The notes: generated by a model not told the origin, from the letters alone. A DNA stretch of 27,282 nt from an uncultured Caldilineaceae bacterium (GCA_964477335.1 CAYZHI010000001.1:1-27282), one strand, 5' to 3'. Positions 5,213-21,252 are shown, counted from the first letter of the stretch. Numbers and translations are program-made.

Positions 5213-6187
5213 TTACCAATTTTTGCGCCAATTGGCCGTAATGATCGACTTATCCTGGGTGACTTCGACCGGCACGGCTTCCGACAACCTGGCTTTGACG
5301 GTTTTGCGGTCATCCGTCTCGACAATGGTTAGGGTCCAGACACATGGCACAGGTTTGGTATCGATGGTAATATCGTAGAAACCGGGAGGCCAATCGCTGC
5401 TCTCTCCATAAGCCCCCCACCCCACCGGGCCAGAGGGATAGGAGATGGTGGCATACGTGCCGCACCTGGCTTCGACAAAGACCCCATTCACGGGGTTACC
5501 GCTGGTATCTTTAATATCACCCAGGAAACGGGTAAGCCCGTAATTAGTGTCGTCGTACCAGCCGGTGGGTTCATACTGGTACTTGGGCTGCTCCGGCTGT
5601 GGGGCTGAACTGCTGCTGGCCGGTTGCGGCTGCGGCTCAGATTGGGCCGCTACCGGAGCAGTCGGAGCCTGGGCTACTGGAACCGCCTCGGTATTGCTGG
5701 CGCGCACAACCGAGTTAGAGACCCAGCCGGTTTCATCGCCGGTCAGGCTGATCTGCCACCAGGAGGCATCGGCATTACGACCGACAATGGGCGCGGCGGT
5801 GTTGGCATTCAGGGCGCCAATTACGGGGTAGTTGAGGCCAGGACCGGAACGGATGTTGACCGTACCGGGGGCTACCAGTTGAGGCTGGGAAGCCGCTTGA
5901 GCCTCAGCCTGGGTCTGGTCTGATTGCGGGATGGGCGGATTGTTAGCTTCAAGGTCAGAGTTGCCAATAACCCGGGTGGCAGTAGCGGTTGGTACCGGTG
6001 TAAAGGGCGTCGGTGTGGGGATGATGATAAAGGGTTGGGCCGGGGCCGGGGTGAAGGTGGGCACCGGGGTGCGGGTGGCATAGGCCAGGTTGAAATCAGT
6101 ATCGAGCAGACGGGTGAATAGCGAAGCAAAGACTAAATAGTTGATCAATATTAGAATTATGGCAAAACTCCAAAATCGAGGTTTCAT
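5213..6187 (-). CDS. Membrane-anchored SH3b-domain protein with Pro/Thr linker and C-terminal beta-sandwich-like domain
   Basis: 324 aa. N-terminal TM, TPVPTFTP/TPTPFTPVPTAT linker, and SH3b VNIRSGPGLNYPVIGAL...IVGRN...WWQI...GWVS. Confidence 0.85.
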   Translation of the reverse strand: MKPRFWSFAIILILINYLVFASLFTRLLDTDFNLAYATRTPVPTFTPAPAQPFIIIPTPTPFTPVPTATATRVIGNSDLEANNPPIPQSDQTQAEAQAASQPQLVAPGTVNIRSGPGLNYPVIGALNANTAAPIVGRNADASWWQISLTGDETGWVSNSVVRASNTEAVPVAQAPTAPVAAQSEPQPQPASSSSAPQPEQPKYQYEPTGWYDDTNYGLTRFLGDIKDTSGNPVNGVFVEARCGTYATISYPSGPVGWGAYGESSDWPPGFYDITIDTKPVPCVWTLTIVETDDRKTVKARLSEAVPVEVTQDKSIITANWRKNW

Positions 6188-6253
6188 CGCTTTACGACTC
6201 CCTCACACCAACCGGTCACCTAACCTACAACGACGATTACGAACGTCAGCTTC

Positions 6254-6283
6254 ATTATACCACGTAACCCCGTCATGATGCAA
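6254..6283 (-). promoter_or_regulatory. Putative sigma-70 promoter of the SH3b gene
   Basis: Minus strand reads TTGCAT-18 nt-TATAAT with an extended -10 (TGgTATAAT). Confidence 0.65.
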
Positions 6284-6332
6284 TATTACGTCAAGTTGAA
6301 TTTTATGTAAACAATTATTTTAAGGTTGAAGC

Positions 6333-7355
6333 ATGGAAGTTTCCGTTATTTGCACGGTTCTCAATGAAGGCCAGAGCATCAACAGATTACTTAGCTCATT
6401 GACTGAACAAAGCCGGCCGGCCGACGAGATTATTTTTGTTGACGGCGGTTCGTCTGACGATACGGTTGCTATTCTGGAGAATTTTGGCCGGGAACATCGT
6501 TTACCGCTACAAGTGATTGTGGCGCCGGGGGCAAATATTAGCCGGGGTCGAAATCTGGCCATTGCAGCCGCGGCCGGTCCGATTATCGCCAGCACGGATG
6601 CCGGGGTGCGGCTGGATAAACATTGGCTGGCAGAGCTGCTGAAACCATTCCAAAACGAGTCGTCCGTCCAGGTGGTCGGCGGCTTTTTTGTGCCGGATCC
6701 GCAAACGGCGTTTGAGGTAGCTATGGGCGCCACCGTTTTACCCCGCGTGTCTGACCTGAACCCGGCCACCTTCTTACCCAGCAGTCGCTCCGTGGCTTTC
6801 CTCAAATCAGCTTGGGATGCAGCCGGCCGTTATCCGGAGTGGTTGGATTATTGTGAAGATCTCATCTTTGATTTTCGGCTGCGCGCTGTTACCGGCCCGT
6901 TTGCATTTGCGCCCGACGCCATCGTCTATTTTCGGCCGCGGAGCAGTCTAGGTGACTTTGTCAAGCAATATTACCGCTATGCCCGTGGAGATGGCAAAGC
7001 GGATCTCTGGCGTAAACGGCACGCCATCCGCTATCTCACCTACCTGGCGGCCTTGCCTTTGTTGTTGATTTTGGGTTTCATTGCTTCGCCGTGGTGGTGG
7101 CTATTTGGAGCCATCCTGGGAGCAGCAGGTTTATTATATACACCGTACCGCCGCTTGCTTGTACTGTGGACATCACTCTCCGGCCTCGGCAAGTTGCAGG
7201 CTATCGCCTGGGTGCCAATTATCAGAGTCAGCGGAGATATCGCTAAAATGATCGGCTATCCGGTAGGATTGAAATGGCGATTAGCTCGTTTAGCTACCCA
7301 ACCGGAACTCCATTGGCGCCAGCAAAGAGCGATTTCCGGCAGCAAATTGAGCTGA
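6333..7355 (+). CDS. Glycosyltransferase family 2 with C-terminal TM segments
   Basis: 340 aa. VICTVLNE, VDGGSSDDT, GRN, TDAG (DxD-like), ED motif (CEDL), QYYRYARGD, and two hydrophobic C-terminal helices. Confidence 0.93.
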   Translation: MEVSVICTVLNEGQSINRLLSSLTEQSRPADEIIFVDGGSSDDTVAILENFGREHRLPLQVIVAPGANISRGRNLAIAAAAGPIIASTDAGVRLDKHWLAELLKPFQNESSVQVVGGFFVPDPQTAFEVAMGATVLPRVSDLNPATFLPSSRSVAFLKSAWDAAGRYPEWLDYCEDLIFDFRLRAVTGPFAFAPDAIVYFRPRSSLGDFVKQYYRYARGDGKADLWRKRHAIRYLTYLAALPLLLILGFIASPWWWLFGAILGAAGLLYTPYRRLLVLWTSLSGLGKLQAIAWVPIIRVSGDIAKMIGYPVGLKWRLARLATQPELHWRQQRAISGSKLS

Positions 7356-7461
7356 GCATCTTATCTGTAACCAAGTTGTAATCATAAGGTTTAAAAAATG
7401 ATGATATAGTCATAGTGAACTTATTCTCAGTTTGGAATACCGGTAGATATGCTTTTTGCGC

Positions 7462-7491
7462 TTGGCCTAATAATTCAAGTTAAGGTATAAT
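7462..7491 (+). promoter_or_regulatory. Putative sigma-70 promoter of kinase 1
   Basis: TTGGCC-18 nt-TATAAT upstream of the kinase gene. Confidence 0.55.
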
Positions 7492-7570
7492 CCTCGTGAG
7501 CGTATATTTGGGGCACTCTGCTAGTGAAACAACCACACAATTGCCGTACCGGATGGTGCAGGAGTACACC

Positions 7571-10252
7571 TTGATCGGGAAAATCCTTGGCAACCGCTAT
7601 AGAGTTCTCCGCGAAGTTGGCAGCGGGGGCATGGCCTGGGTCTACCTGGCTGAAGATATCAAAGATAATAATTTGGTTGCCGTTAAAGTTTTATACCCCC
7701 AATTTGGTGAAGATTTAGCCTATATTCAGCGTTTCAACCGTGAAGCCAAGCTGGCCAGCATGTTGACCGATCCGCACATCGTCCCCGTTTTAGATTACGG
7801 CGCCGATCGGGATATTCATTACCTGGTTATGGAATTTATTGACGGCAAAGATCTCCGCGAAACGCTGGAGGAAAAGGGGCCATATGCCTGGCGAGAGGCG
7901 CTCGAAATAGTGGATCAGCTGGCCACTGCCCTGGAGCACGCTCATCTTTATGGCATTGTCCACCGAGATATTAAACCCCAAAATATGATGTTGACCGACT
8001 CCGGGCTGCTTAAAGTTCTTGATTTTGGCATTGCCCGGATTCCTACATTGCCCTCATTAACCCAATCTGGTTTTGTGGGTTCACCCTACTATGTTTCACC
8101 GGAGCAAGCTATGGGCGAGGAAATTGATACTCGCTCTGATATCTATTCTTCCGGCATCGTTCTCTATGAATTATTGACCGGTCGAATTCCGTTTGACGCC
8201 AAGAGTCCCTGGTCAATTATCAATCAGCATCTCACCAGCGAACCACCTCCACTTAACCTAACCAACACTGATATTCCGTTAGAAGTTGAACAGTTACTGA
8301 GCCGAATGATCGCTAAGCGACCCGAAGATCGATTTCCCAATCCCAGCGCCTTGCGGCGGGCGCTTAGCGCAGTCTTGGCCGGTGAGCCTATCCCGGATAG
8401 CGCGCTCGACACTCAGCCCATTACACCACCCAATAAACAGGCTATGGCCGATAGTTTTTATCAACGGGCCTTGCGGGCAATGGAAGCTGAGGAGTGGGGT
8501 CGGGCTGCCGACTTGCTGAATCAGGTACTCAGTCTGGTGCCATCCCATAAAGAGGCCTCAGCCAAGCTCATGCTGGCCGACCAGAAGTCTTTTGTAGCGT
8601 CGCTCTTCAACGCCGGCAAACGGGCTTTGAAAAACGAACGGTGGGAAGAAGCCATTAATAGTTTCAACGGCATCCTTGAACTTGAACCAGATCGGTTGGA
8701 GGTTAAGGAGTTGCTGGCTCAGGCTCAGCAAGCTCTGGAAAAGGAAAATGCCGAACAACTCATTATTACACTCTACCACGAAGGCCAGGCTCACCTTGAG
8801 GCGCAACGTTGGGACCTGGCAGTAAAAGCATTTGAAGACGTACAGCGTTTGTCGCCGGATTATAAAGAGGTTGAGCAGTTTCTGGCCGAAGCAAGGCGGA
8901 GGGCCAACCCAACGTTCATCCAAAAAATCGTCTCGATGCGTTATGATAATTGGTGGCGCTGGGGGTTGGTTGCCGCCGGGGTGTTGGTTATCTTTGGGTT
9001 GTTTTTCACGTTTGGCACCGAGAATTCCCCGGTAGCGGGAGACGATAACCTCAGAGAAAAGTTAAAGACACTCTATGCCGACGCTCAGGTGGCAATTCAA
9101 AATGATGACTCAGAACGAGCCATTGCCTTGCTTGACCAAATTTTGGCCGAAGATCCAGACTATGCCAATGCGGCCGACCTGAAGCGAGAGCTAACCATTA
9201 CGCCCACCCCCGCCCCAACCAGCACACCCACCGCCACGCCCGACGCCCTGGCTCCGCTCCTGGCTGAGGCCCAGGCTGCGGTAGAGCTTGGCGATTGGTC
9301 TGCCGCGCTGGAACATTTGGCCGAGATCAAAGAGGCAAATTCAGAATACCAACAAGCTCTGGTCATAGCTCTTTTCTGCGACGCCTCGGTCAATCGCGGG
9401 CTGGAAAAGCTGGCCAACATCGCCCCGGCTGACAACGAGCAAGAAATTGTTCAAGCTGCTTTGGCCGATTTTGAGGCAGGCGCGGCGGCCTGTCCCCGGC
9501 GAACCGATTTACGAGATCAGTTAGATCGCTCAACGGCCTATCTTAAAGCGCTTAATACCCCTACCAACGACTATGACACCTTGATCCAAACGTTAACCCC
9601 TTTGGTCGCCGCCGACCCTGACTTTGCAACTGCAAAAGCCAAAGACCTCTTGTATAACGCTCACCTTAATCGGGGTGATGCTCGCCGTGAAGCCGGGGAC
9701 TTTGTAGGCGCCTTGAGTGATTATGAAACGGCCCTGGCCTTAAGAGTAGCCAACCCTAATGAGGCCCAAACCCATCGAGCTGAACTGCTGCTATCTTTTG
9801 GTCAGCAGGCCAGCGTGGACAGCTTAGCTACTCCACCACCCGCAGTCACTGCGACCAGCACCACCGGTGCAGAGGAGCCAGCCACACCGGAACCGGTTCG
9901 GATAAGATTCGGGCCGCCCCAATTAATCAGCCCGGAAAATGATGCCCTTTTTGCCGGAAAATTTGGCGATGTCTACGTTGAATGGGCGCCGGTTGGTTCT
10001 CTGGCGCCGGATGAATACTACGACCTGACGGTGATGCACATCTACGCTGACGAACCGACCTATTGGGGTACGGCCACTCGAGAAACTCGGCTGAAACTCA
10101 ATCCAGAAGATATCGGCGTGGGCAGGGCCGGTCAGGATCGTTTTTATTGGTGGGTAACTGTGCGTAAGGCCAATACTGCGTCGGCGGCCAACAGTTTGGA
10201 TTTACCGGTAAGCCGCCAGAGTGAAGGTAGAACTTTCGTTTGGGCTCCCTAA
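7571..10252 (+). CDS. Membrane Hanks-type Ser/Thr protein kinase: kinase - TPR-like repeats - TM - TPR-like repeats - Ig/FN3-like domain
   Basis: Intact motifs GSGGMAWVY, VAVK, HRDIKPQN, DFGIA, SPEQ and DIYS. TPR-like helices on both sides of the TM at ~8951-9016. Start placed at TTG 7571 because CAGGAG lies 6 nt upstream (ORF track starts at 7496; ATG 7553 is an alternative). Confidence 0.93.
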   Translation: MIGKILGNRYRVLREVGSGGMAWVYLAEDIKDNNLVAVKVLYPQFGEDLAYIQRFNREAKLASMLTDPHIVPVLDYGADRDIHYLVMEFIDGKDLRETLEEKGPYAWREALEIVDQLATALEHAHLYGIVHRDIKPQNMMLTDSGLLKVLDFGIARIPTLPSLTQSGFVGSPYYVSPEQAMGEEIDTRSDIYSSGIVLYELLTGRIPFDAKSPWSIINQHLTSEPPPLNLTNTDIPLEVEQLLSRMIAKRPEDRFPNPSALRRALSAVLAGEPIPDSALDTQPITPPNKQAMADSFYQRALRAMEAEEWGRAADLLNQVLSLVPSHKEASAKLMLADQKSFVASLFNAGKRALKNERWEEAINSFNGILELEPDRLEVKELLAQAQQALEKENAEQLIITLYHEGQAHLEAQRWDLAVKAFEDVQRLSPDYKEVEQFLAEARRRANPTFIQKIVSMRYDNWWRWGLVAAGVLVIFGLFFTFGTENSPVAGDDNLREKLKTLYADAQVAIQNDDSERAIALLDQILAEDPDYANAADLKRELTITPTPAPTSTPTATPDALAPLLAEAQAAVELGDWSAALEHLAEIKEANSEYQQALVIALFCDASVNRGLEKLANIAPADNEQEIVQAALADFEAGAAACPRRTDLRDQLDRSTAYLKALNTPTNDYDTLIQTLTPLVAADPDFATAKAKDLLYNAHLNRGDARREAGDFVGALSDYETALALRVANPNEAQTHRAELLLSFGQQASVDSLATPPPAVTATSTTGAEEPATPEPVRIRFGPPQLISPENDALFAGKFGDVYVEWAPVGSLAPDEYYDLTVMHIYADEPTYWGTATRETRLKLNPEDIGVGRAGQDRFYWWVTVRKANTASAANSLDLPVSRQSEGRTFVWAP

Positions 10253-10381
10253 ATTTGAACGTTGATGGGGCTACTACCAGCTGAGCAGCCGAGTCTAACA
10301 TTTGATCGTTTACGAAAAAATGCAGCAGTTCTTCCCCAACCAGTAGTCTCTCCATCCTATTGCCCTCACCCGGACCAGCCA

Positions 10382-10390
10382 TGATATAAT
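10382..10390 (+). promoter_or_regulatory. Extended -10 element upstream of the Phd-like/IMPase pair
   Basis: TGaTATAAT about 90 nt before ATG 10481; TTGCCC at 10360 gives a 19-nt spacer. Confidence 0.5.
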
Positions 10391-10480
10391 TGAAATGTCT
10401 CTTGGTTTAACAATTTGCGCGCTTTCTTTTACTCCAAGTAGGCCCTTCAAACTGACTTGAGTGACTGCAGGGTACAGAAG

Positions 10481-10780
10481 ATGGATAAAAAATTCAAACA
10501 AGCGCTCATCGATGAGTTTACCAGAGTTAATACCACCAAAGACCCTGTAATCATCAAACACAGCGGCACGCCCATCGTCCTGCTCTACCCTATTGAAGAG
10601 CCTCAAAAATTCCAGGCTAAACGTGATCAGGAATTCCAACAGTTAAAAACAGAACTAAATCACCTTTTGACTTTTATCCGGTGCCGGATAAAACAGTTGC
10701 CGGAAGAGGTAGAGACCCAACTGGCTACCCATCGACAAAAGATTAAAGAGGCCCTGCAAAAACCTGATGACACCCTTTGA
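10481..10780 (+). CDS. Small protein with a Phd/YefM antitoxin-like N-terminal motif and a helical C-terminus
   Basis: 99 aa from ATG 10481. DPVIIKHSGTPIVLLYPIEE resembles the Phd/YefM pattern (PV.I...G.P..VL.P.E). Overlaps the next gene by 14 nt. Confidence 0.55.
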   Translation: MDKKFKQALIDEFTRVNTTKDPVIIKHSGTPIVLLYPIEEPQKFQAKRDQEFQQLKTELNHLLTFIRCRIKQLPEEVETQLATHRQKIKEALQKPDDTL

Positions 10781-11573
10781 TTACCTGCAAGTACAAAGTT
10801 GGGTTCGAGAAGCCGGACGAATTGCTTTAACTCATTTTCAAACCCAACTACACCGGCAGCAGAAGGCAGATTATAGCCCCGTTACTGAGGCCGACAAGGC
10901 CGTTGAAGATTTCATTATTGGCAAAATCGAACAGACGTACGGATGGCTTGACCACGGTTTCATTGCCGAAGAATCTGGCGGCGATTGGCAAGGCAAGGAG
11001 TTTGTGTGGGCCATTGATCCCATCGATGGCACGCGGGTATTCATCGATGGGTTGCCCTTATGGTGCATTAGCATTGGCCTGCTGCGCCGCGGTGAACCCT
11101 ATCGGGGTGTGGTCTATCTGCCCACCCTTGACGAAATTTATTACACTAACAACGAAGGAATACCTTTTTGGAACGACCGCCCCCTTGCCGGTATGCTTCG
11201 CACCGACTGGAATCGGGACTCGTTTATGTGTGTGCCCTCGACCGTGCATCAACATTTTGAGATCGATTTCCGCCGGCTTCGGGCCCTGGGAGCAATTGCC
11301 ACCCACCATGTTTACGTGGCCAGAGGAGCTACTGCGGCTGCCCTGCATCGCGATGCCAAAATCTGGGATCTGGCGGGCGCCCACGCCATTCTTAGCGCAG
11401 CGGGCGGTGTGGCCAGCTATCTGGATGGCCGGCCATTCTCACTGGCTGAACTCTTAACCAACGAGCAATGGCTCTGTCAACAGCCGATTCTGGTTGGACA
11501 TCCGGTTATGCTGGAAAAATTATTACCCAGAATTAGAGCCTACCCAACCACCACCACAAACTCAGCCCAATAG
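10767..11573 (+). CDS. Inositol monophosphatase family (SuhB/HisN/CysQ superfamily) Mg-dependent phosphatase
   Basis: 268 aa. SPVTEAD, IAEE, WAIDPIDGT and IWDLAGAHAILSAAGG; the metal-binding residues are present. Confidence 0.93.
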   Translation: MTPFDYLQVQSWVREAGRIALTHFQTQLHRQQKADYSPVTEADKAVEDFIIGKIEQTYGWLDHGFIAEESGGDWQGKEFVWAIDPIDGTRVFIDGLPLWCISIGLLRRGEPYRGVVYLPTLDEIYYTNNEGIPFWNDRPLAGMLRTDWNRDSFMCVPSTVHQHFEIDFRRLRALGAIATHHVYVARGATAAALHRDAKIWDLAGAHAILSAAGGVASYLDGRPFSLAELLTNEQWLCQQPILVGHPVMLEKLLPRIRAYPTTTTNSAQ

Positions 11574-11593
11574 GCTTCTGGCCCGTTTTTAGA

Positions 11594-11622
11594 TTGTCAA
11601 AGGCTTTAAAATAGCTTATACT
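11594..11622 (+). promoter_or_regulatory. Sigma-70 promoter of the roadblock pair
   Basis: TTGTCA-17 nt-TATACT, 35 nt before ATG 11658. Confidence 0.7.
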
Positions 11623-11657
11623 TATGCTAGTAACATAATGCAAAGGTTTGAACAGCC

Positions 11658-12074
11658 ATGGCTCAAGTTTACAAAACAGATCTGCTTGAAGGCGCCTTGA
11701 AAGAGCTGTGCAGCAAATTAGAAGGGGTCCAGGGCGCGGTCATCGTGAGTATCGAAGGCTTTGTTGTAGCCGCCTACTCCCCGCTTGAGACTGAAATGGA
11801 CGAAGAAGACAGCCCGACCAGTAGTCCACAAGTAGCCGCAATGGCTGCCACCTTGATTGCCCTGGGCGAACGCACCCTCTCCCGGTTGGCCCAAGGTGAG
11901 ATGATCCGGCTACTAATCGAAGGAAATGACGGCGGTATGTTGGTGGTGCCGGCTAACCGGCGCTCATCTGTAGCCGTGATGGTTGGCAGGGAAGCAAAGA
12001 TGGGGTTGGTACTATACGCCTTGCAACAAAGCGCCAAGAAAATTAGTCATATTCTTGAAGGAAGCGTTAATTGA
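11658..12074 (+). CDS. Roadblock/LC7 domain protein (MglB-like) 1
   Basis: 138 aa. GVQGAVIVSIEGFVVAA...VAAMAATLIALGER...GEMIRLLIEG.DG...AKMGLVLY matches the roadblock fold pattern. Confidence 0.92.
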   Translation: MAQVYKTDLLEGALKELCSKLEGVQGAVIVSIEGFVVAAYSPLETEMDEEDSPTSSPQVAAMAATLIALGERTLSRLAQGEMIRLLIEGNDGGMLVVPANRRSSVAVMVGREAKMGLVLYALQQSAKKISHILEGSVN

Positions 12075-12460
12075 TGACCAATTCAGATCAAATCAAAGAT
12101 AATAGTCAACTCTTGACCGAAATTCTTGACGAATTGACATTTCGCAATCCCAACGTTCTCAGCGCCCTGGTTGTAAGCGACGATGGTTTAAATGTAGCTT
12201 CCGGCCTGCCGCACGATGATGATGATACCATTGCCCTGACTGCTTCTGACCTGATGGATATGGCCGCAGATTTCTGTAAGCGTTTAGAACAGGGCCGGCT
12301 GGTTCGGGTGGTGTTAGAAGGCGAACAACGCACCACGATTGTAGTAAATGCCGGCAGCCGTACTGTTCTGGCGGTGCTGGTTCCGGCCGAAGCCAAATTG
12401 GGCTTGGTAGCGCTCTCGATGCGCCGGGCGGCCGATCAAATCGCCGCGATGTTTGGATAA
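12074..12460 (+). CDS. Roadblock/LC7 domain protein 2 (divergent paralog)
   Basis: 128 aa from ATG 12074, overlapping the upstream stop in TGATG. VLSALVVSDDGLNVASGL...GRLVRVVLEGE...AKLGLV. Confidence 0.92.
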   Translation: MTNSDQIKDNSQLLTEILDELTFRNPNVLSALVVSDDGLNVASGLPHDDDDTIALTASDLMDMAADFCKRLEQGRLVRVVLEGEQRTTIVVNAGSRTVLAVLVPAEAKLGLVALSMRRAADQIAAMFG

Positions 12461-12491
12461 ATTTGCCAGAGCTGTAATTGCGCCTCGAATC

Positions 12492-12529
12492 AAAAAGAGC
12501 TACCCCGTTTAGACAAGGTAGCTCTTTTT
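12492..12529. terminator. Bidirectional intrinsic terminator
   Basis: AAAAAGAGCTACC-12 nt-GGTAGCTCTTTTT between the convergent roadblock 2 and kinase 2 genes; U-tract on both strands. Confidence 0.88.
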
Positions 12530-12547
12530 ATGTAGAAATAGAATTTC

Positions 12548-15067
12548 TTACATACCCCACGACATCCGCTCATTGGTCCATTCACGATCGCCGCCAGCCC
12601 CCCACGGATTGCCTTTGGGAAAGTCAAACAGCTTGGTCACGGCGCCGCCGCCGGTCGAGACCACATACACAGCCCAACCCCCGCCCCGGTCCGAAGCAAA
12701 CGCAACCCACTGGCCATCCGGAGAAATCGTCGGTAAGCCGTCGTTAGAAGTGGGGCTGTTAGAGAGGTTGGTCAATCCCTCACCATTCAGACCCATTACA
12801 TATACTTCCCAATCCCCACTTTCCCTCGAATGCAGGACGACCAGGCTACCCGCCGTATCGGTAGGAGTCAGGCTGGTGCCATCGGCTATCTTGCGGGGTG
12901 TTTCGCCATTGCTGCTGCGTTTGTTAGCCCACGAACCAACGGTAAAAACGCCACAAGATTGACCCCCGGCCCAACTGTTACAACCTTTGTACACAATCTG
13001 GTCGCTCTCAGTCCAGACCGGGTTGCTACCCTGAATTTCACCAACCTGTCCGGCCGGCACCAAAACCCCAAAACGGGCTACATCAATACACGTTTGTTCC
13101 GACTCCTGAGAAGGTGGGATCAAGCCACACTGCACAAAGATATAGGAGTGATAGTTCCCATCAGAACCAATCGCCAATTGTGGATTGTCGTAAGCCAAAC
13201 GATTACCATAAGGGTCATAGGTCGGATGGGAATCGGTCGGTGAGCCACTAACCGCTCTTTCAATGGTCCCGGCGGAGCTTGCTTCAAAAACATTTTCGCC
13301 AAAGCCGCCGCCCTGACCGTTGATGAGTAACTTGGCCCCATCGGGACGAAAATTAGGTTGGCGCGCCCCATCGATCCGGGTAAGTTGTCCACCATCGGGC
13401 ATAGAGACAATGAAAAGATCATACCTGCCACCGCCATTATCGACCGGAAAAGCCAACTTTCCGGAAATAGGTGGTCGTTCGGGTGTTGGGGTGGCCGTAG
13501 GCTCGGCCGGCGGGGCCGGAGTAGGGGTATTGGTGGGTGGACCAGGTGTCGGCGTATCAGTAGGAATGGGCGTGGCCGTAGCTTCTGGTGTTGGCGTTAC
13601 CAGCGCCAGAGCTTCAGCTGTGCTGGCTTCGGCCGTAGCAGTTCGAGCCGTGGCAATCTCAGCCGTGGCCGCTTCAGATGTAGCCAGAAAACTTTGGATG
13701 AGACCCGCCTGCTGTTCAAACTGAGCCGTGGCGGTGTTGGCTATATCAAGCTGAGCCTGGGCGGTCCGGGTGGGAGCAACCACCTCAAGGGCTGCGGCTG
13801 TGCCGGTAGCATTGGCCGCACTCTGGGCCGCTACAGTCTCAGCGGTAGCCGTAGTAGCGGCGTTGTTGGCTGCGGTATTAGTTGCAGCACTAACCGCAGC
13901 AGCCGTTTCTCTTTCCTCAACAGCAGCCGTAGCCGCGGCATCGACCGTGGCCGTAGGCGTTGGCCGGCTCAGGACGAATGCCCCCACTACCCCGGCCACA
14001 ACCAACACCAAGATAATCGCCCCACCAATGGCCAGAGGCAGCACCGGCACGCCCCTGGCCGGAGCTGCAGTGGCTTCAGGAGATAGCACTGTCGCCCCCT
14101 CGCCGGCGCTGCCAAGCGCTGTGGCCGCTTTCTGCCGGCTTCTGAGAGGACCGGTGGGGTGATCAATCTGGTGAATCTTTGGCGGCGGGGCGACCGTTTT
14201 CAGGGGAGTGCTGTGAAGCGTATCGTCGGGGGCCAGGCCAACCGCGTCGCGCAAATCTTTGGCCATTGCTCCGGCACTCTGATAACGGTCATCCGGATTC
14301 TTGCTCATCGCTTTGAGGATGACTTTCTCCACCCCTTCCGGAATGTCTGGATTGATCTTTCGGGGCATCGGTAGTGGTTCACTGATATGCTGCATAATTA
14401 CGGCAAAGGGTGTATCAGCATCGTATGGAACCGTACCGGTAACCATCTCGTAGAGCATCACGCCCAGGGAGTAGATATCGCTGCGCTCATCCCCTCGTTC
14501 ACCCTGACCTTGCTCCGGCGACATATAGGCCGGGGTGCCGGCCAGGGCGCCGGTCTGCGTAAACTGAGTAGCGCCTACAATCCGGGCAATCCCAAAATCG
14601 GTCAGAACGATTTGTCCTTCCTGATTGATCATAACGTTGGCCGGTTTGATATCGCGGTGGACCATGCCGCGGGCATGGGCATAATCAATAGCGCTACACA
14701 ATGCCGTAAAAATTCGGGAGATCTCCTCGTAGGTAAAGGGCTGATTGGCTGCCCGGCGCGCTTTCATTTCCTCCTTCAAAGTCGGGCCGTCGATATACTC
14801 CATCGCCATAAAGTACAGGTCGCCTTCGCGGTCAAAATCAAGCGCCTGCACAATAGCGGGATGGCGTAGTTTACCAATGGCCAGAGCTTCCCGCTCAAAT
14901 CGACCGATGAAATCAGCATCATCGACCAGATGGCTGTGAAGAACTTTGATCCCCACATAGCGATCCAGGCCAGGCTGGTAGGCTTTATAGACTTCAGCCA
15001 TCCCGCCCCGACCTAATCTGGCTACAACTCGATACCGTCCCAGTGTTTTACCAACTAACTCTGCCAT
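12548..15067 (-). CDS. Membrane Hanks-type Ser/Thr protein kinase: kinase - TM - Thr/Ala/Pro-rich stalk - TolB-like (PD40) beta-propeller
   Basis: 839 aa. GRGGMAEVY, VGIK, HRDIKPAN, DFGIA, MSPEQ and DIYSLG. TM at ~13970-14044. Propeller repeats QPNFRPDG, PTISPDGQWVAFASDR at ~12551-13468. Confidence 0.94.
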   Translation of the reverse strand: MAELVGKTLGRYRVVARLGRGGMAEVYKAYQPGLDRYVGIKVLHSHLVDDADFIGRFEREALAIGKLRHPAIVQALDFDREGDLYFMAMEYIDGPTLKEEMKARRAANQPFTYEEISRIFTALCSAIDYAHARGMVHRDIKPANVMINQEGQIVLTDFGIARIVGATQFTQTGALAGTPAYMSPEQGQGERGDERSDIYSLGVMLYEMVTGTVPYDADTPFAVIMQHISEPLPMPRKINPDIPEGVEKVILKAMSKNPDDRYQSAGAMAKDLRDAVGLAPDDTLHSTPLKTVAPPPKIHQIDHPTGPLRSRQKAATALGSAGEGATVLSPEATAAPARGVPVLPLAIGGAIILVLVVAGVVGAFVLSRPTPTATVDAAATAAVEERETAAAVSAATNTAANNAATTATAETVAAQSAANATGTAAALEVVAPTRTAQAQLDIANTATAQFEQQAGLIQSFLATSEAATAEIATARTATAEASTAEALALVTPTPEATATPIPTDTPTPGPPTNTPTPAPPAEPTATPTPERPPISGKLAFPVDNGGGRYDLFIVSMPDGGQLTRIDGARQPNFRPDGAKLLINGQGGGFGENVFEASSAGTIERAVSGSPTDSHPTYDPYGNRLAYDNPQLAIGSDGNYHSYIFVQCGLIPPSQESEQTCIDVARFGVLVPAGQVGEIQGSNPVWTESDQIVYKGCNSWAGGQSCGVFTVGSWANKRSSNGETPRKIADGTSLTPTDTAGSLVVLHSRESGDWEVYVMGLNGEGLTNLSNSPTSNDGLPTISPDGQWVAFASDRGGGWAVYVVSTGGGAVTKLFDFPKGNPWGAGGDREWTNERMSWGM

Positions 15068-15130
15068 AATTTACCTGTTTGGATGTGGTGAAAGTAGTAA
15101 TGAATTGGTATCAATTTTGCCCAAATATAA

Positions 15131-15150
15131 AGGCGAACTATCGTTCGCCT
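15131..15150. repeat. Palindrome AGGCGAAC-N4-GTTCGCCT in the predicted 5' UTR of kinase 2
   Basis: Perfect 8-bp stem between the promoter (15184-15212) and ATG 15067. Confidence 0.7.
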
Positions 15151-15183
15151 CTAATCGTAGAGAGACGCACCACCAACAACTTC

Positions 15184-15212
15184 ATTATAACATTGCCCCT
15201 GTGGTGCGTCAA
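15184..15212 (-). promoter_or_regulatory. Near-consensus sigma-70 promoter of kinase 2
   Basis: Minus strand reads TTGACG-17 nt-TATAAT with an extended -10 TG. Confidence 0.8.
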
Positions 15213-15249
15213 TCAGTCACTTAGAAATTAGCTCCGGCCGATAAGGCTT

Positions 15250-18200
15250 TTAAGGAGCCCAGGAAATTCGTTCTTCCAACCAACCTTTCGAATTGTCGAT
15301 ATCTCGTAAAACTTTGCCATCTGGCGAGCCATTCATATTGAATAGCTTTCTTTGATTACTGCCATCGGCGTTCATCACCCAAACGGCCCATGAGCCGCCT
15401 TGATCTGACACGTAGGCAATACTCTGACCATCGGAAGACCAGGCGGGTAACCCCTCATTACTACCATTATTGGTGAGGCGCTGTGGGCTTGAGCCGTCCG
15501 CATTCATCACCCAAATCTCCCAATTAGTGGCCCCCCGAGCAGATGACATAACGGCAATTTTGCTACCATCCGGTGATACCGCCGGAGCGGTATCGGAAAA
15601 TTCACTGCTGATCTTCCTTTCACCACCGCCGTTGGCCCCCATCACATACAAACCACAGTCACCTGCCGGTGAACAGCCTCTCACCACCAATCGCCCATCA
15701 GGGAAGGTGGCGGGATATTCGCCCTGAAAACCGATGCCATAATCCCCATCGCCTGACTGATTACCAACGAAAATGCGGGGCACCCGATCACCTTCGCGGC
15801 GGCTGGCAAAGGCAAACGAGTAACCATCGGGCGACCAGGTAGGTAGGCCATCTTCCACAAAACGGGTCACCTGCCCTTCGCGGCCGCCGATGAAATCTCG
15901 GAAGAAAATGCCGCGGTTGCCCAAATTCCAGGAGCGATAAGCCAGCAAGCTGCCATCCCGGTTAAAGGCTGGCTGGCTGGCCTCAGTCGCAATAATCGTT
16001 TGTTCGCCGGTGGCAATGTCAGCCATCCAGATATCGTAAACATTGCTGCCAGGATTGAACGCCGGGTAGACAATCCGACCACTCACGGCAGCCGCGTCAC
16101 CTGAAGGCGCAGCCGCTTCAGCAGCCGGCGACGCAGCAACCGGCGCTTCCGCCGTCTCAACCTCGGCCTGAGCCGTGGTAGTAACAGCGCCGGTCGTATC
16201 GGTTGGCTCGGCTGCCGTTGTCTCGGTGGTGGTGGATCCAGCATTATAAGCTTCCAGCTCTTCAGCCGTGAAGGGGATGACCAATTCCTGGCCTAACTGC
16301 AAACTTGTAGGATCGGTAATATTGTTCTTGGAGGTCAACAAGTCGACGTCAACGCCAAATCTGGCGGCTATGGCCAGGAGCGTATCACCTGATTGAATTC
16401 GATAAACCAGCGGCGTGGCCGTGCCCTTGGGAGTAGGTGTAGCTGCCGGGGTCGACCTAGCCTCACCCGTTTTAGCGGGCGTAGGCGTGCTCTTCGAATC
16501 TGCTGCTTCATCTTCTTCGCCTGCAGCCGTGGCCTCAGCGGTCATCGGGGTCGCGGCTTGAGCCGCGGCATCGGTGGAGAAGCTAAAGCTGTTGATCATG
16601 GCTTGAAATTGCGGCTGGACCGCATTCCAGGCCGCAGCCGGGGCCAGGGCCACCAGGTAGTAACCGGCTCCGTCCTTGTTGGTTACAGCCAGGGTAGCAA
16701 TTCCCTGGCCACCCAAATCGTCAGCCTGATACCTGATTTGGGCCGAAGTCCAAATCTGGGAAGCAATACTGATGGTACCTTCATTGAGGGTTTCGGCGTC
16801 GCTTGGAAAATCGGCCAAAACTTCGGTCAATAGATCGGCAATGGCCATCCCTTCATCAGCCGACTTACAGATGATCATGACCGCGTCTTTGGGATTGTCC
16901 AGATCAAGTCCGGCTGAGGAGGGCGAGAACATCCCGCAGAGTTCTTCCTCGGCTTGCTGCCAATTCTCGGGATATTCGACCCGATAGCCCAGGTCGGCGC
17001 TACTGAAGGTAGTCAGAGCAACAGGAGTAGAGGAGACTGCGGCCTCAAGTTCAGGTGTAGCCGTTGGACCAGGAGTGGGCGTGGCATCAGGCGGGCCGGC
17101 ATCAAGGGTAGGGGTAAGGCTGGGCACGGCCACCAACCCGCCGCTGCCCAGGTCATCACTCTGAAACCAACTCCAGGTAAAGATCAACCCAACCGCACAA
17201 GCCAACAAAATGACAACGCCGCCCACAAACGTCCACAAGGTACTGGGGAGTGATCGCAACACGTCACCCACAGTGTAACTTTCCTTCTCTGCTATTTGGG
17301 GCTGGGCGGCAGCGGCTTTACCGACAGCGGCGGCTGAAGTTGCAGCACCGGCTTTTGGCTGGGCCGTTTGTTGGGCCGGCGGCGCGACAGGTCTCACCGG
17401 CGCGGTATCAGCCCGCGCCGCTGCCGCAGCCGGGGTCGGCATCGCCTGGGTCACGCTGCGATGAACTTCGGGCGGGGGTGTAGGTTCCACCCGGCGGACC
17501 GGCTCCATCGGCAACGTGTTTTCGCGAGCTCGACGCTCCTGACCCGGCGCAGGTCTAACCGGCCGGCTGGCTGCTCTGGCCGACGGCGAGCGGGGTGAGG
17601 AGATGTTTGAAGCGGCCGCACCCGTCGGAATGATGATGGTAGGCTCATGCACGGCTTCTCGTTTTCTGGGTGGAACAGTACGATTCGGCTCTGTAACCGG
17701 CCGGCTGCCTCTGGCTACAGGCTGGACCTGGAGCTGCTCCTCCTGGCGTCGCGGCGGCACCTCGACGGGCCGGCTGGCTCGCCGCGGCCGTGGCTCTGCT
17801 GCAGCCGGATGAGAAGTAGATTTTGGCTCAGTAACCGGTTGAGGAGCCGGAGTGGTTGCCTTTGGCTCCGGTTTTGCCTCAGGTTCAGGATCGATGACCG
17901 TAATTACTTCAACATCAACCACCTCAACCGGGGGTTCATCCGCTTCGATAAACTCGGCGACCACCGGCTCACGCTTGGCTTCAGCTTTAGGCTTGGCCGA
18001 TTTTGGCTGCTGTTCGATCACCATTGTGGGTGGAGGCTGCGGACTCTCAACCGGTTCACCCGTGGCGTACTTTAGCCATTGTTGACCATCGAAGTAGAAC
18101 CAACTGCCGGAGTCGGTTGGGTCTTTGGGAGGCATCGGCGGCTGGACAGGCCCGGACTCAGCCGGAGCCGGCTGGTCAAACGTACCGGCTCGAGCCTCAT

Positions 18201-19149
18201 GGGCCGGCGCCCCGGCCTGAGCCTGAGGTTGGGCCTGGCCCGGCATGTCGAACTGGCCAGGTTGAGGCGCTACATAAGGTTGGGCCGGCTGGTAGGGTGG
18301 AGCCGCAGGTTGTTGCGGTTGGCTAAGATTCTGTTGGACATATTGAGCGCTGGCAGCTTGAGTTTCCGGTCCCGGTGAGGTAATGTAAATTTGGATTGGC
18401 TGAGTTGGTGAAGTTGGCTGCTGCGGCTGAATCACATAGCCCTGGTTGGCTGCTGGCGAAGCCGGTTGAGGATAGACGGCTGGCTGGTATGGCGACGTCG
18501 CATAGTTTGGCGCCGCCGATCCACGCTGGGGTTGGTAAGGCTGGGTATAGGGCGCCTGAGCGGAGGAAGCCGGGGTTCGAAATTCATGAGCCGGATGCCA
18601 GCCATTTTGGTCATAGAAATACCATTGGCCGGTTTTCTCACCGATAGCCCAATATCGTCCCTCATCATCCTGGAAAAGTTGGCCGTCAAGCTGGCCCGGC
18701 ATACCAGGCCCGGCATCGTGGCTTTGGGGTTGTAACTGAGCCTGAGCGGGCACATATGCCGTGGTTGGCTGCTGGCGGCCCTGTCCCCGGCCTACAGACG
18801 GCGAGGCGACGGCATCGCCTGCCCCAGGTTTGACCCACTCGCCCGTGTCAGCTTGGTAGTAGTACCAGTCTCCACTTTTGACGCCCCGCTGCCAATAGAT
18901 GCCCTGATCGTCCATAAAGGGCAGCCTGTCGGCCTCGCGGGGGTCGGCCTGTTGCCAGTTCTGGCCATCGTAATAATGCCAACTACCAGACTGAGCGCCG
19001 ATCATCCAATATCGACCCCAGCTATCTTGAAACTGAAGTTTATCTACTTCGGCAATATACCTTGCTTCATCGATCTTTCCGGCCTGAAAATCGCGAGCCA
19101 GAATTCTATAACGCTTCTCAAATCTTATTATTTTTTCTTCAATTTCCAT
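15250..19149 (-). CDS. Large bitopic membrane protein: SHOCT-like helices plus Trp-rich repeats - Pro/Gln/Ala low-complexity region - TM - PsbP/DcrB-like - LysM - TolB-like propeller
   Basis: ~1299 aa from ATG 19149 (GGGA 3 nt upstream; the track starts at TTG 19161). TM at 17164-17238. PsbP-like LGYRVEYPENW...FQAMINSFSF at 16579-17016. LysM YRIQSGDTLLAIAARFGV...LQLGQELVIP at 16273-16404. PD40 repeats (PTWSPDG, PAVSPDG, PAWSSDG) at 15253-16086. Confidence 0.88.
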   Translation of the reverse strand: MEIEEKIIRFEKRYRILARDFQAGKIDEARYIAEVDKLQFQDSWGRYWMIGAQSGSWHYYDGQNWQQADPREADRLPFMDDQGIYWQRGVKSGDWYYYQADTGEWVKPGAGDAVASPSVGRGQGRQQPTTAYVPAQAQLQPQSHDAGPGMPGQLDGQLFQDDEGRYWAIGEKTGQWYFYDQNGWHPAHEFRTPASSAQAPYTQPYQPQRGSAAPNYATSPYQPAVYPQPASPAANQGYVIQPQQPTSPTQPIQIYITSPGPETQAASAQYVQQNLSQPQQPAAPPYQPAQPYVAPQPGQFDMPGQAQPQAQAGAPAHEARAGTFDQPAPAESGPVQPPMPPKDPTDSGSWFYFDGQQWLKYATGEPVESPQPPPTMVIEQQPKSAKPKAEAKREPVVAEFIEADEPPVEVVDVEVITVIDPEPEAKPEPKATTPAPQPVTEPKSTSHPAAAEPRPRRASRPVEVPPRRQEEQLQVQPVARGSRPVTEPNRTVPPRKREAVHEPTIIIPTGAAASNISSPRSPSARAASRPVRPAPGQERRARENTLPMEPVRRVEPTPPPEVHRSVTQAMPTPAAAAARADTAPVRPVAPPAQQTAQPKAGAATSAAAVGKAAAAQPQIAEKESYTVGDVLRSLPSTLWTFVGGVVILLACAVGLIFTWSWFQSDDLGSGGLVAVPSLTPTLDAGPPDATPTPGPTATPELEAAVSSTPVALTTFSSADLGYRVEYPENWQQAEEELCGMFSPSSAGLDLDNPKDAVMIICKSADEGMAIADLLTEVLADFPSDAETLNEGTISIASQIWTSAQIRYQADDLGGQGIATLAVTNKDGAGYYLVALAPAAAWNAVQPQFQAMINSFSFSTDAAAQAATPMTAEATAAGEEDEAADSKSTPTPAKTGEARSTPAATPTPKGTATPLVYRIQSGDTLLAIAARFGVDVDLLTSKNNITDPTSLQLGQELVIPFTAEELEAYNAGSTTTETTAAEPTDTTGAVTTTAQAEVETAEAPVAASPAAEAAAPSGDAAAVSGRIVYPAFNPGSNVYDIWMADIATGEQTIIATEASQPAFNRDGSLLAYRSWNLGNRGIFFRDFIGGREGQVTRFVEDGLPTWSPDGYSFAFASRREGDRVPRIFVGNQSGDGDYGIGFQGEYPATFPDGRLVVRGCSPAGDCGLYVMGANGGGERKISSEFSDTAPAVSPDGSKIAVMSSARGATNWEIWVMNADGSSPQRLTNNGSNEGLPAWSSDGQSIAYVSDQGGSWAVWVMNADGSNQRKLFNMNGSPDGKVLRDIDNSKGWLEERISWAP

Positions 19150-19167
19150 TGTTCCCACCACAAGCTA

Positions 19168-19185
19168 GGCGAAGGCAATTTCGCC
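19168..19185. repeat. Palindrome GGCGAA-N6-TTCGCC just upstream of the large LysM/TolB gene
   Basis: Read directly; 18 nt upstream of ATG 19149. Confidence 0.55.
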
Positions 19186-19402
19186 CTCACAAAGTACATC
19201 TCTCCTTCACTTCCTATCCTATTGCAACAACCATCTGGAATCCTGGTTAAGCCAAGAGCTGCTGGCGGACCTGTAAATTTCCCAGTTTACAATGACCACC
19301 TGATTATTGCATAAGCTAGTATGGTACACTTCTTTGGTTGAATCTCCAAAAATCGACACCCGACTCAAAAAAGTCACGTTGCTACCAATTTTCCGAAAAA
19401 AC

Positions 19403-19411
19403 TGGTATAAT
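19403..19411 (+). promoter_or_regulatory. Extended -10 element, probably giving a leaderless transcript
   Basis: TGgTATAAT ends 8 nt before ATG 19420; no Shine-Dalgarno in between. Confidence 0.65.
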
Positions 19412-19419
19412 CCGCTCCG

Positions 19420-21195: not shown

Positions 21196-21218
21196 AATGT
21201 AAAAAGTGAAACGTGATT
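21191..21218 (+). repeat. Degenerate heptamer array over the stop codon of the AP-fold gene
   Basis: TGTGAAA TGTAAAA AGTGAAA CGTGATT. Confidence 0.5.
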
Positions 21219-21252
21219 CTATTCAACTTCTGATTTTTACCGAGGTGGAGCT

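What the first reader, a model, noticed from the sequence alone, without database searches (positions are those of the whole stretch)
11658..12460. Translationally coupled, divergent Roadblock pair with no small GTPase, sitting between two Ser/Thr kinases
Seen: two Roadblock/LC7 genes joined by a TGATG overlap form a transcription unit with their own promoter (11594-11622) and terminator (12492-12529). No P-loop GTPase ORF occurs anywhere in the window. Helix 2 is canonical in the first (VAAMAATL) and divergent and acidic in the second (IALTASDLMDM). Known: bacterial roadblocks usually accompany MglA-type GTPases (MglB GAP; Streptomyces conservons); Myxococcus MglC is a divergent paralog; the eukaryotic LAMTOR2/3 (p14/MP1) roadblock heterodimer scaffolds MAPK kinases. 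Inference: an obligate 1:1 heterodimer acting in trans on a distant MglA, or acting as a kinase scaffold or polarity factor.
Basis: partly seen in the sequence, partly recalled or inferred. Interest (0 to 1): 0.68.

Follow-up and report, generated by a model that had tools for sequence, protein, structure and literature searches.

The report
Orphan Roadblock gene pair in Anaerolineae
Two small overlapping genes for Roadblock-type regulatory proteins form a conserved two-gene unit in a clade of hot-spring Chloroflexi with no GTPase partner nearby; it is a real, tidy example of the many "orphan" MglB-like genes whose partner is unknown, not a new kind of system.

Summary
ORFs 11658-12074 (RblA) and 12074-12460 (RblB) are both Roadblock/LC7 proteins. 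Their stop and start codons overlap, and the promoter and bidirectional terminator are conserved in relatives. No Walker A motif occurs in any frame of the window.

In 80 species genomes and 22 metagenome contigs, RblB is always directly downstream of RblA (50/50). No small GTPase lies within 10 kb of any locus.

RblA is the slowly evolving ortholog of a highly conserved single Roadblock gene found across Anaerolineae. RblB is a lineage-specific partner that diverges 2.1 times faster.

The two flanking Ser/Thr kinases are conserved only in a crown clade (16 of 28 pair-bearing species). Deep-branching pair lineages and one nested subclade lack them, so the pair predates the kinase neighbourhood and survives without it. 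Single-gene orthologs often sit convergent to a zinc-ribbon/FHA gene, which is a weak second link to phospho-threonine signalling.

Best reading: a co-translated Roadblock heterodimer that fixes the asymmetry seen in MglB dimers and acts on a partner encoded elsewhere. That partner is most likely an MglA-family GTPase and less likely the kinases.

Heterodimer formation and the presence of a genomic MglA could not be tested. Orphan and tandem MglB homologs were already catalogued in 2014. Interest is moderate.

The parts
11594..11622 (+). Sigma-70-like promoter (TTGTCA-17-TATACT) for the RblA-RblB unit
   Evidence: 10/12 match. A match of 10/12 or better occurs upstream of RblA in 17/29 loci against 2.5% of random 160-nt windows, and the identical hexamers occur in 9 species. 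No transcription start has been mapped.
11642..11646 (+). Shine-Dalgarno-like AAAGG, 11 nt before the RblA ATG
   Evidence: AAAGGTT is nearly invariant in the upstream alignment of 10 species.
11658..12074 (+). rblA: 138-aa Roadblock/LC7 protein, the slowly evolving subunit, with an acidic loop insert at residues 41-56
   Evidence: Pfam Robl_LC7 43 bits. AF2 pLDDT 85 with an a1-b1-b2-a2-b3-b4-b5-a3 fold. Foldseek finds Asgard Roadblock3, S. avermitilis Roadblock and MglB at TM about 0.8. 677 homologs. Mean identity among 28 species is 80%. A metatranscriptome contig covers 11812-12042.
12057..12062 (+). Internal Shine-Dalgarno-like GAAGGA for rblB, inside the conserved ILEG C-terminus of RblA
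   Evidence: GGAGG/GAAGG lies 9-15 nt before the RblB start in nearly all pair loci.
12074..12460 (+). rblB: 128-aa Roadblock/LC7 protein (an alternative TTG start at 12071 gives 129 aa), the fast-evolving subunit with a conserved acidic alpha2
   Evidence: Pfam Robl_LC7 56.6 bits. AF2 pLDDT 76 with the full Roadblock fold. Foldseek gives the same neighbours as RblA. It always follows rblA. It diverges 2.1 times faster than RblA in 378/378 species pairs. S58, D59, L60, D62, A64 and F67 are invariant.
12492..12529 (.). Bidirectional intrinsic terminator shared with the convergent kinase gene
   Evidence: 13-bp stem between an A-run and a T-run, -21.4 kcal/mol, z -2.7. Hairpins at the same position in relatives have different but complementary stem sequences.
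10481..10780 (+). Context: small conserved Phd/YefM-like protein (ORF from 10457; the likely start is MDKK at 10481). In several relatives it abuts the rblA start
   Evidence: Weak PhdYeFM_antitox hits at E 0.003 to 0.0007. Homologs sit directly upstream of rblA with a gap of -1 to 3 nt in L013, L020, L036 and L101. Alignment.
10767..11573 (+). Context: inositol-monophosphatase-family gene (best NCBIfam hit HisN, below cut-off), a variable upstream neighbour of the pair
   Evidence: Pfam Inositol_P E 2.4e-42. TIGR02067 scores 130 bits against a cut-off of 275. Present upstream of the pair in about a third of pair loci.
7496..10252 (+). Context: transmembrane Hanks-type Ser/Thr kinase with TPR repeats
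   Evidence: Pkinase E 3.8e-50 plus TPR families. HRD and DFG motifs and one hydrophobic segment are seen in the translation. Conserved upstream of the pair in 17 of 28 pair-bearing species.
12548..15067 (-). Context: transmembrane Hanks-type Ser/Thr kinase with a PD40 beta-propeller, convergent with rblB
   Evidence: Pkinase E 1.7e-47 plus PD40. Conserved downstream in 18 of 28 pair-bearing species, and in the metagenome contigs that have enough flank.

Best explanation
RblA and RblB are the two subunits of a co-translated Roadblock heterodimer.

Shown:
- Both have the full Roadblock fold.
- The genes share one promoter-to-terminator unit with a conserved start/stop overlap and an internal ribosome-binding site.
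- RblB is never found without RblA directly upstream.
- RblA is the ortholog of a very conserved single Roadblock gene present across Anaerolineae.
- RblB is a lineage-specific partner that evolves twice as fast.
- No GTPase lies within 10 kb in any relative.

Inferred:
- The ancestral single protein works as a homodimer, as all solved prokaryotic Roadblock proteins do.
- In this clade a second subunit replaced one protomer. The resulting pseudo-symmetric alpha2-helix platform makes permanent the two different protomer roles that an MglB homodimer adopts when it binds one MglA.
- The platform acts in trans on a partner encoded elsewhere. The most likely partner is an MglA-family small GTPase, for which it would be a GAP/GEF-type regulator. 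Anaerolinea thermophila carries one orphan group-5 mglA and one orphan mglB homolog.

The flanking kinases are neighbours acquired later in one subclade. They are not part of the core unit.
For: - Domains and fold.
- Transcription unit.
- Overlap: a 1- or 4-nt start/stop overlap in 24 of 28 species, with GGAGG-like sites inside the end of rblA.
- Co-occurrence: 28/28 species and 22/22 RblB-seeded metagenome contigs.
- Identities: RblA to single-gene orthologs 50%, RblB to those orthologs 31%, RblA to RblB 29.5%. RblB is more diverged than RblA in 378/378 species comparisons, ratio 2.1.
- No GTPase nearby: phmmer with a verified M. xanthus MglA finds nothing in 92 loci or the 22 metagenome loci. 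No ORF carries G1+G3+G4 motifs. Of 1041 genes, only 4 short ORFs have an N-terminal P-loop, and all look like ABC ATPases.
- Precedent from PMC4316618: 44% of MglB homologs are orphans, and A. thermophila has the orphan MglA ANT_06780 and the orphan MglB ANT_03760.
- MglB dimers bind one MglA asymmetrically (title and abstract of PMC11016934).
- The pair predates the kinase neighbourhood (tree).
Against:
- Whether these genomes encode any MglA-family GTPase could not be checked.
- By sequence, both proteins are closer to Asgard and actinobacterial Roadblock proteins than to MglB. RblA has no MglB hit at E<=1, and RblB hits MglB at 2e-4.
- The A. thermophila link is by analogy. Its ortholog was not recovered.
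- Kinases in the crown clade and FHA genes next to the single-gene orthologs are recurrent neighbours. They leave room for a non-GTPase partner.
Confidence: 0.45

Rival explanations
1. The Roadblock pair, and the single ancestral protein, is a GTPase-independent cytoplasmic adaptor in Hanks-kinase/FHA phospho-threonine signalling. It would bind the cytoplasmic part of the transmembrane kinases, or be their substrate, and organise signalling about the cell envelope. That would make it a bacterial analogue of the LAMTOR2/3 (MP1/p14) scaffold.
For: - The pair lies between two active-looking receptor kinases in 16 of 28 pair-bearing species, inside a conserved envelope block running SH3, GT2, kinase ... 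kinase, LysM/PD40, phosphodiesterase, RmlD.
- Independently, 27 of 46 single-gene orthologs with enough flank have a convergent zinc-ribbon plus FHA gene immediately downstream.
- The upstream kinase carries cytoplasmic TPR repeats.
- In 6 species that kinase is the immediate same-strand upstream gene, with a gap of 85-198 nt.
- No GTPase is ever nearby.
Against: - The four deepest pair lineages and one nested subclade have the intact pair with no kinase or FHA gene within the available flanks (roughly 2-10 kb per side).
- The pair has its own promoter and terminator, and the downstream kinase is convergent.
- Each association is inherited synteny, so it amounts to about two independent events in genomes rich in such genes.
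- No paper in the held library links bacterial Roadblock proteins to FHA or Hanks kinases.
Confidence: 0.2
2. RblA and RblB each form their own homodimer. The two homodimers either work separately or stack into a higher-order complex, as the M. xanthus MglB and MglC homodimers do. RblB would then be a modulator or localisation factor for the RblA dimer and not a replacement protomer.
For: - All solved prokaryotic Roadblock structures among the hits are homodimers: 9jue, 7f8m, 3kye and MglB.
- RblA orthologs function without RblB in most Anaerolineae.
- MglC (7ct3) is among the structural neighbours of RblB.
- The MglB/MglC precedent is in the literature found.
Against: - mglB and mglC are not adjacent or co-translated, as far as I recall. 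Here strict adjacency and the start/stop overlap point to 1:1 synthesis.
- The alpha2 helix of RblB, the usual dimer interface, is the least confident part of its monomer model (pLDDT 53-62). That fits a helix needing a specific partner, but the evidence is weak.
Confidence: 0.2
3. The arrangement has no functional meaning: two unrelated small ORFs or decaying paralogs that happen to lie between kinase genes.
For: None beyond the absence of experimental data.
Against: - Both are significant Pfam matches.
- RblA is 80% identical on average across 28 species, and single-gene orthologs in the main group sampled are 83-99% identical to each other.
- Gene order, overlap, promoter and terminator are conserved.
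- A transcript fragment exists.
Confidence: 0.02

Closest known systems
Orphan and tandem MglB homologs catalogued by Wuichet and Sogaard-Andersen 2014 (PMC4316618)
   Same: Roadblock/LC7 genes with no mglA within four genes. They include tandem MglB>MglB and MglB>MglB>MglB clusters in Deinococcus-Thermus and Chlorobi, and a lone orphan in Anaerolinea thermophila. None of them had been characterised at that time.
   Different: Here the two genes are clearly differentiated paralogs (29.5% identity) with unequal evolutionary rates and conserved translational coupling. The lineage (uncultured Caldilineaceae-labelled Anaerolineae) was not in that survey.
MglB, the GAP (and proposed GEF) of MglA in Myxococcus xanthus and Thermus thermophilus
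   Same: Same fold including the C-terminal helix, with TM about 0.8 for RblA and 0.65-0.75 for RblB. It forms a dimeric alpha2 platform that binds one GTPase asymmetrically.
   Different: MglB is a homodimer encoded next to mglA. Here there is no mglA nearby. Sequence similarity to MglB is marginal for RblB (E 2e-4) and absent for RblA. GAP activity is untested.
LAMTOR2/LAMTOR3 (p14/MP1) Roadblock heterodimer of eukaryotes
   Same: Two paralogous full-length Roadblock subunits would form an obligate heterodimer. They are structural neighbours (Foldseek E 1e-7 to 1e-4, TM 0.62-0.73). Protein kinases are in the picture in both cases.
   Different: No sequence-level relationship beyond the superfamily. 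No LAMTOR1-like anchor was identified. The kinase link here is only gene neighbourhood in part of the clade. The heterodimer is inferred, not shown.
Asgard archaeal Roadblock proteins (MK-D1 Roadblock3 9jue, Thor-RB 7f8m)
   Same: These are the closest solved structures by both sequence (E 7e-10 to 7e-14) and fold. They are stand-alone full-length Roadblock proteins.
   Different: They crystallise as homodimers (PMC10933270). Their partners are also unknown.
Actinobacterial conservon Roadblock proteins (CvnB, MfpD/Rv3364c)
   Same: Sequence hits at E 1e-2 to 6e-7, and they are dimeric Roadblock regulators of a small GTPase.
   Different: Conservons encode a histidine kinase, a DUF742 protein and a GTPase next to the Roadblock gene. 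None of these is present here.
MglC of Myxococcus xanthus
   Same: A divergent orphan Roadblock paralog that works together with another Roadblock protein. It is a structural neighbour of RblB (7ct3, E 3e-6).
   Different: As far as I recall, MglC is not encoded beside mglB, forms its own homodimer, and belongs to the MglA polarity module. None of that is established here.

Membership tests
Roadblock/LC7 superfamily (Pfam PF03259) | Significant match to the family profile above the curated threshold | tested here: met
   RblA scores 43 bits and RblB 56.6 bits against a cut-off of 23.
Roadblock/LC7 superfamily (Pfam PF03259) | alpha-beta-beta-alpha-beta-beta-beta(-alpha) fold | tested here: met
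   AF2 models have pLDDT 85 and 76 with exactly this order of elements. Top Foldseek hits are all Roadblock structures.
Roadblock/LC7 superfamily (Pfam PF03259) | Dimerisation through alpha2 and the edge strand | not testable with these tools
   Only single-chain prediction is available, and no coordinates can be handled in the sandbox.
MglB (cognate regulator of MglA) | Encoded within four genes of an mglA gene (the operational definition of 'coupled' in PMC4316618) | tested here: not met
   No Walker A in the window. No MglA hit or small-GTPase motif set in 114 related loci within +/-10 kb.
MglB (cognate regulator of MglA) | Closer in sequence to experimentally defined MglB than to other Roadblock proteins | tested here: not met
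   RblA has no MglB chain at E<=1. RblB hits MglB at 2e-4, behind Asgard Roadblock proteins, CvnB5 and Rv3364c.
MglB (cognate regulator of MglA) | Binds MglA-GTP and stimulates hydrolysis | not testable with these tools
   This needs biochemistry. Even the presence of an MglA gene elsewhere in these genomes could not be checked.
Actinobacterial conservon (CvnA-D / Mfp) | Roadblock gene in an operon with a histidine kinase, a DUF742 protein and a small GTPase | tested here: not met
   None of these domains occurs in the window or in the conserved neighbourhood.
LAMTOR2/3-type Roadblock heterodimer | Two distinct full-length Roadblock paralogs that always occur together | tested here: met
   29.5% identity between the subunits. 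RblB is always directly downstream of RblA in 50/50 loci.
LAMTOR2/3-type Roadblock heterodimer | Physical 1:1 heterodimer | not testable with these tools
   No multimer prediction is available. The only evidence is conserved translational coupling.
LAMTOR2/3-type Roadblock heterodimer | Scaffolds protein kinases | tested here: inconclusive
   Kinases flank the pair in 16-19 of 28 species but are absent in 8, including the deepest lineages. An FHA gene sits next to the single-gene orthologs. There are no interaction data.
Type II toxin-antitoxin pair (considered only for the small upstream ORF) | Phd/YefM antitoxin followed by a toxin gene | tested here: not met
   The Phd/YefM match is below threshold (17-20 bits against 29.8). 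The downstream gene is a phosphatase or rblA, never a toxin family.

The most novel reading that the evidence does not exclude
The RblA family is not a GTPase regulator. It would be a conserved cytoplasmic adaptor of transmembrane Hanks-kinase/FHA signalling in filamentous Anaerolineae. In one clade it became a dedicated heterodimer placed between two receptor kinases that sense the cell envelope. That would be a bacterial, independently evolved counterpart of the MP1/p14 kinase scaffold.
Probability: 0.15. Interest if true: 0.7.

Novelty: new member of a known kind. Interest (0 to 1): 0.4.

Why it matters
Nearly half of prokaryotic MglB-like genes are orphans, and almost none has a known function.

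This pair is a clean natural case in which a homodimeric Roadblock platform seems to have become a two-gene heterodimer. Eukaryotes made the same transition in Ragulator, Rag GTPases and TRAPP.

If the heterodimer is real, it gives a simple recombinant system for asking which protomer of a Roadblock dimer does what, and for fishing out the unknown partner (GTPase, kinase or FHA protein).

The RblA family is also one of the most conserved small proteins in Anaerolineae. Single-gene orthologs in the main group sampled are 83-99% identical to each other, which suggests an important and still unknown housekeeping role.

Tried and rejected
- A 17-sequence alignment was too diverse for the genome scan. 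A 7-sequence one worked.
- Literature look-ups by PDB code gave only the Asgard paper.
- The third homolog search used a single-gene ortholog as query. The aim was to recover the Anaerolinea thermophila protein (ANT_03760) and tie the family to a genome known to hold one orphan MglA. Only MAG proteins came up, the nearest labelled 'Anaerolinea sp.' at 73% identity. The link remains an analogy.
- RNA evidence is thin. One metatranscriptome contig of 237 nt lies inside rblA. It says nothing about operon ends.
- Longer Roadblock-containing relatives from the representative search carried no informative fused domain. One had two Roadblock stretches plus a weak zinc-ribbon match.
- A solved-structure search with the small upstream protein found nothing.
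- Conservon membership, coupled-MglB membership and a toxin-antitoxin reading of the small ORF were all considered and rejected (see the membership test).
- A phospho-acceptor reading of the conserved 'PTSSPQ' motif before alpha2 was considered. The Ser-Pro-Gln sits at the start of the predicted helix and is more simply a helix cap. It was not pursued.
- Charge complementarity between the two alpha2 helices was considered as a test of heterodimer against homodimer. It was dropped because both pairings look compatible.

Full report
**What is in the window**

rblA runs from 11658 to 12074 (138 aa). rblB runs from 12074 to 12460 (128 aa), or from a TTG at 12071. The stop TGA (12072-12074) overlaps the ATG (12074-12076).

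Both proteins match Pfam Robl_LC7 well above the curated cut-off of 23 bits: 43 bits for RblA and 56.6 bits for RblB. They are 32% identical to each other.

The neighbours are as follows:
- Upstream: a transmembrane Hanks-type kinase with TPR repeats (7496-10252), a small ORF (10457-10780) and an inositol-monophosphatase-family gene (10767-11573).
- Downstream: a convergent transmembrane kinase with a PD40 propeller (12548-15067), then a LysM/PD40 protein (15250-19161).

Both kinases keep the HRD and DFG motifs. No GxxxxGK[ST] motif exists in any of the six frames of the 27-kb window, so the claim of no P-loop GTPase is true in the strongest sense.

**Transcription unit**

The promoter-like site at 11594-11622 is a 10/12 match. 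On its own that would mean little. However, a match of 10/12 or better lies within 160 nt upstream of rblA in 17 of 29 pair loci, against 2.5% of random 160-nt windows from the same loci. The very same hexamers, TTGTCA-17-TATACT, recur in nine species.

The terminator at 12492-12529 folds into a 13-bp stem between an A-run and a T-run (-21.4 kcal/mol, z -2.7). Hairpins of the same design, with different but complementary stem sequences, occupy the same position between rblB and the convergent gene in most relatives.

A GGAGG-like site sits inside the conserved ILEG C-terminus of RblA. The start of rblB overlaps the stop of rblA by 1 or 4 nt in 24 of 28 species. A 237-nt metatranscriptome contig lies inside rblA. 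The unit is therefore real and insulated from the downstream kinase.

In several relatives a homolog of the small upstream ORF abuts the rblA start, with a gap of -1 to 3 nt. There the unit has three genes and the promoter-like site is missing.

**Structure**

AlphaFold2 models with family alignments give the full Roadblock fold for both proteins: a1-b1-b2-a2-b3-b4-b5-a3, with pLDDT 85 for RblA and 76 for RblB.

RblA has a disordered acidic insertion at residues 41-56 before alpha2. RblB has a conserved acidic alpha2, with S58, D59, L60, D62, A64 and F67 invariant.

The nearest solved structures, by both sequence and fold, are:
- Asgard archaeal Roadblock homodimers (9jue, 7f8m);
- Streptomyces Roadblock proteins (3kye, 3leq);
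- MglB;
- LAMTOR2/3, further away.

These come, with context from PMC10933270. By sequence RblA does not hit MglB at all, and RblB hits it only at E 2e-4. But RblB is the one closer to the Pfam consensus overall, while RblA carries the insertion.

**Distribution**

The closest relatives are uncultured Chloroflexota labelled Caldilineaceae or Anaerolineae, from hot-spring and other metagenomes.

A scan of one genome per species found 106 species with an RblA relative, and I analysed the best 80:
- 28 carry the RblA-RblB pair.
- 52 carry a single RblA-like gene. One of these is cut by a contig end.

Mean identities:

| Comparison | Mean identity |
|---|---|
| RblA to RblA | 80% |
| RblB to RblB | 57.6% |
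| RblA to single-gene orthologs | 50% |
| RblB to single-gene orthologs | 31% |
| RblA to RblB | 29.5% |

RblB is more diverged than RblA in all 378 species comparisons, with a ratio of 2.1. An RblB-seeded scan of metagenome contigs returned 22 loci, and all have rblA directly upstream.

So RblA is the conserved ortholog of an Anaerolineae-wide Roadblock protein. RblB is a lineage-specific, faster-evolving partner that is never seen alone. The single-gene orthologs in the main group sampled are themselves strikingly conserved, at 83-99% identity to each other.

**Neighbourhood: GTPases**

No relative of MglA was found by phmmer in any of the 92 loci then held or the 22 metagenome loci. The M. 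xanthus query sequence was verified against the PDB.

No ORF carries the G1, G3 and G4 motifs together. Among 1041 predicted genes in the 80 species loci, only four short ORFs have an N-terminal P-loop, and all look like ABC ATPases.

**Neighbourhood: kinases**

- 16 of the 28 pair-bearing species have kinases on both sides, inside a conserved block running SH3, GT2, kinase ... kinase, LysM/PD40, phosphodiesterase, RmlD.
- Three species have a kinase on one side only.
- One contig is too short to judge.
- Eight species with adequate flanks have none. There the pair lies among unrelated genes such as prephenate dehydrogenase, an Opp permease, PRPP synthetase, an amidohydrolase and FG-GAP proteins.

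A neighbour-joining tree of concatenated RblA+RblB places the four deepest pair lineages (L037, L038, L040, L042) and one nested subclade (L019, L022, L024, L028) in the kinase-less class. The pair is therefore older than its kinase neighbourhood and moves as an intact unit.

**Neighbourhood of the single-gene orthologs**

Urocanase lies immediately upstream in 27 of 44 loci with enough flank. A convergent zinc-ribbon plus FHA-domain gene lies immediately downstream in 27 of 46. An ECF sigma factor follows.

The FHA neighbour is a second, independent association with phospho-threonine signalling. Each association is inherited synteny, however, and these genomes are rich in such genes.

**What is already known**

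Wuichet and Sogaard-Andersen (PMC4316618) found that 328 of 749 MglB homologs are orphans. They list tandem orphan clusters in Deinococcus-Thermus and Chlorobi. They also record that Anaerolinea thermophila has one orphan MglB homolog and one orphan group-5 MglA next to a PATAN gene.

MglB dimers bind one MglA asymmetrically, with the two protomers playing different roles (PMC11016934). I found no paper in the held library that links bacterial Roadblock proteins to FHA or Hanks kinases.

**Interpretation**

The best-supported reading is a co-translated Roadblock heterodimer that arose when a second subunit joined an ancestral homodimeric protein. It would fix the asymmetry of the platform and act in trans.

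- The most likely partner is an MglA-family GTPase. This rests on family precedent and the Anaerolinea example.
- A kinase/FHA partner is the main rival.
- A two-homodimer arrangement, as with MglB and MglC, is the second rival.

Shown here: domains, fold, transcription unit, strict co-occurrence, unequal evolutionary rates, absence of a nearby GTPase, and the limited distribution of the kinase flanks. Inferred: the heterodimer itself and the identity of the partner. Neither could be tested here, because only single-chain prediction is offered and whole genomes cannot be searched.

**Verdict**

This is a new, well-defined member of the already catalogued class of orphan and tandem MglB-like genes. 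Its interest is moderate.

Noticed in passing
window 10457-10780; L004 9707-10000; L013, L020, L036, L101: A conserved protein of about 95 aa. Its N-terminus resembles Phd/YefM antitoxins (below threshold) and its C-terminus is a long helix. It abuts or overlaps the rblA start in several species, and in the window it overlaps the phosphatase gene start. No toxin partner is present. It may be a third component or an autoregulator of the unit.
   Followed up: partly
L041-L092 (for example L057 10464-11456, minus strand): Single-gene RblA orthologs across several Anaerolineae orders have a convergent zinc-ribbon plus FHA-domain gene immediately downstream (27 of 46 loci with enough flank). An ECF sigma factor follows it.
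   Followed up: partly
window 10767-11573; L041 6281-7948; L037 3333-4628: Histidine-metabolism genes recur as neighbours. A HisN-like phosphatase lies upstream of many pairs. Urocanase lies immediately upstream of 27 single-gene orthologs. An imidazolonepropionase-like amidohydrolase overlaps the rblB stop in L037. This may be coincidence or a nutrient-sensing link.
   Followed up: no
window 15250-19161 (minus strand): A 1303-aa protein. Its N-terminus carries four repeats of a Trp/Tyr-rich motif (G.W.YYD-like). Long Pro/Ala/Gln-rich tracts follow, then a membrane segment, a PsbP-like region, LysM and a PD40 propeller. It is conserved next to the PD40 kinase in all crown-clade loci.
   Followed up: no
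window 5213-22095: A conserved cell-envelope block runs SH3 protein, GT2 glycosyltransferase, TPR kinase, [pair], PD40 kinase, LysM/PD40 protein, phosphodiesterase-family protein, RmlD. It is syntenic in many species while the outer flanks vary (PMT_2, MFS, ABC).
   Followed up: partly
window 1-27282: Not a single Walker A (GxxxxGK[ST]) motif occurs in any of the six reading frames across 27 kb.
   Followed up: yes
L011 9729-10004 versus L010 9591-10004: In one of two nearly identical metagenome contigs, the called rblA product is only 91 aa instead of 137. This could be a sequence difference near the 5' end or a gene-calling artefact.
   Followed up: no
protein P0313 (representative library): A 395-aa remote relative carries two Roadblock stretches in one chain plus a weak double-zinc-ribbon match. 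It is a possible single-chain pseudo-dimer.
   Followed up: no
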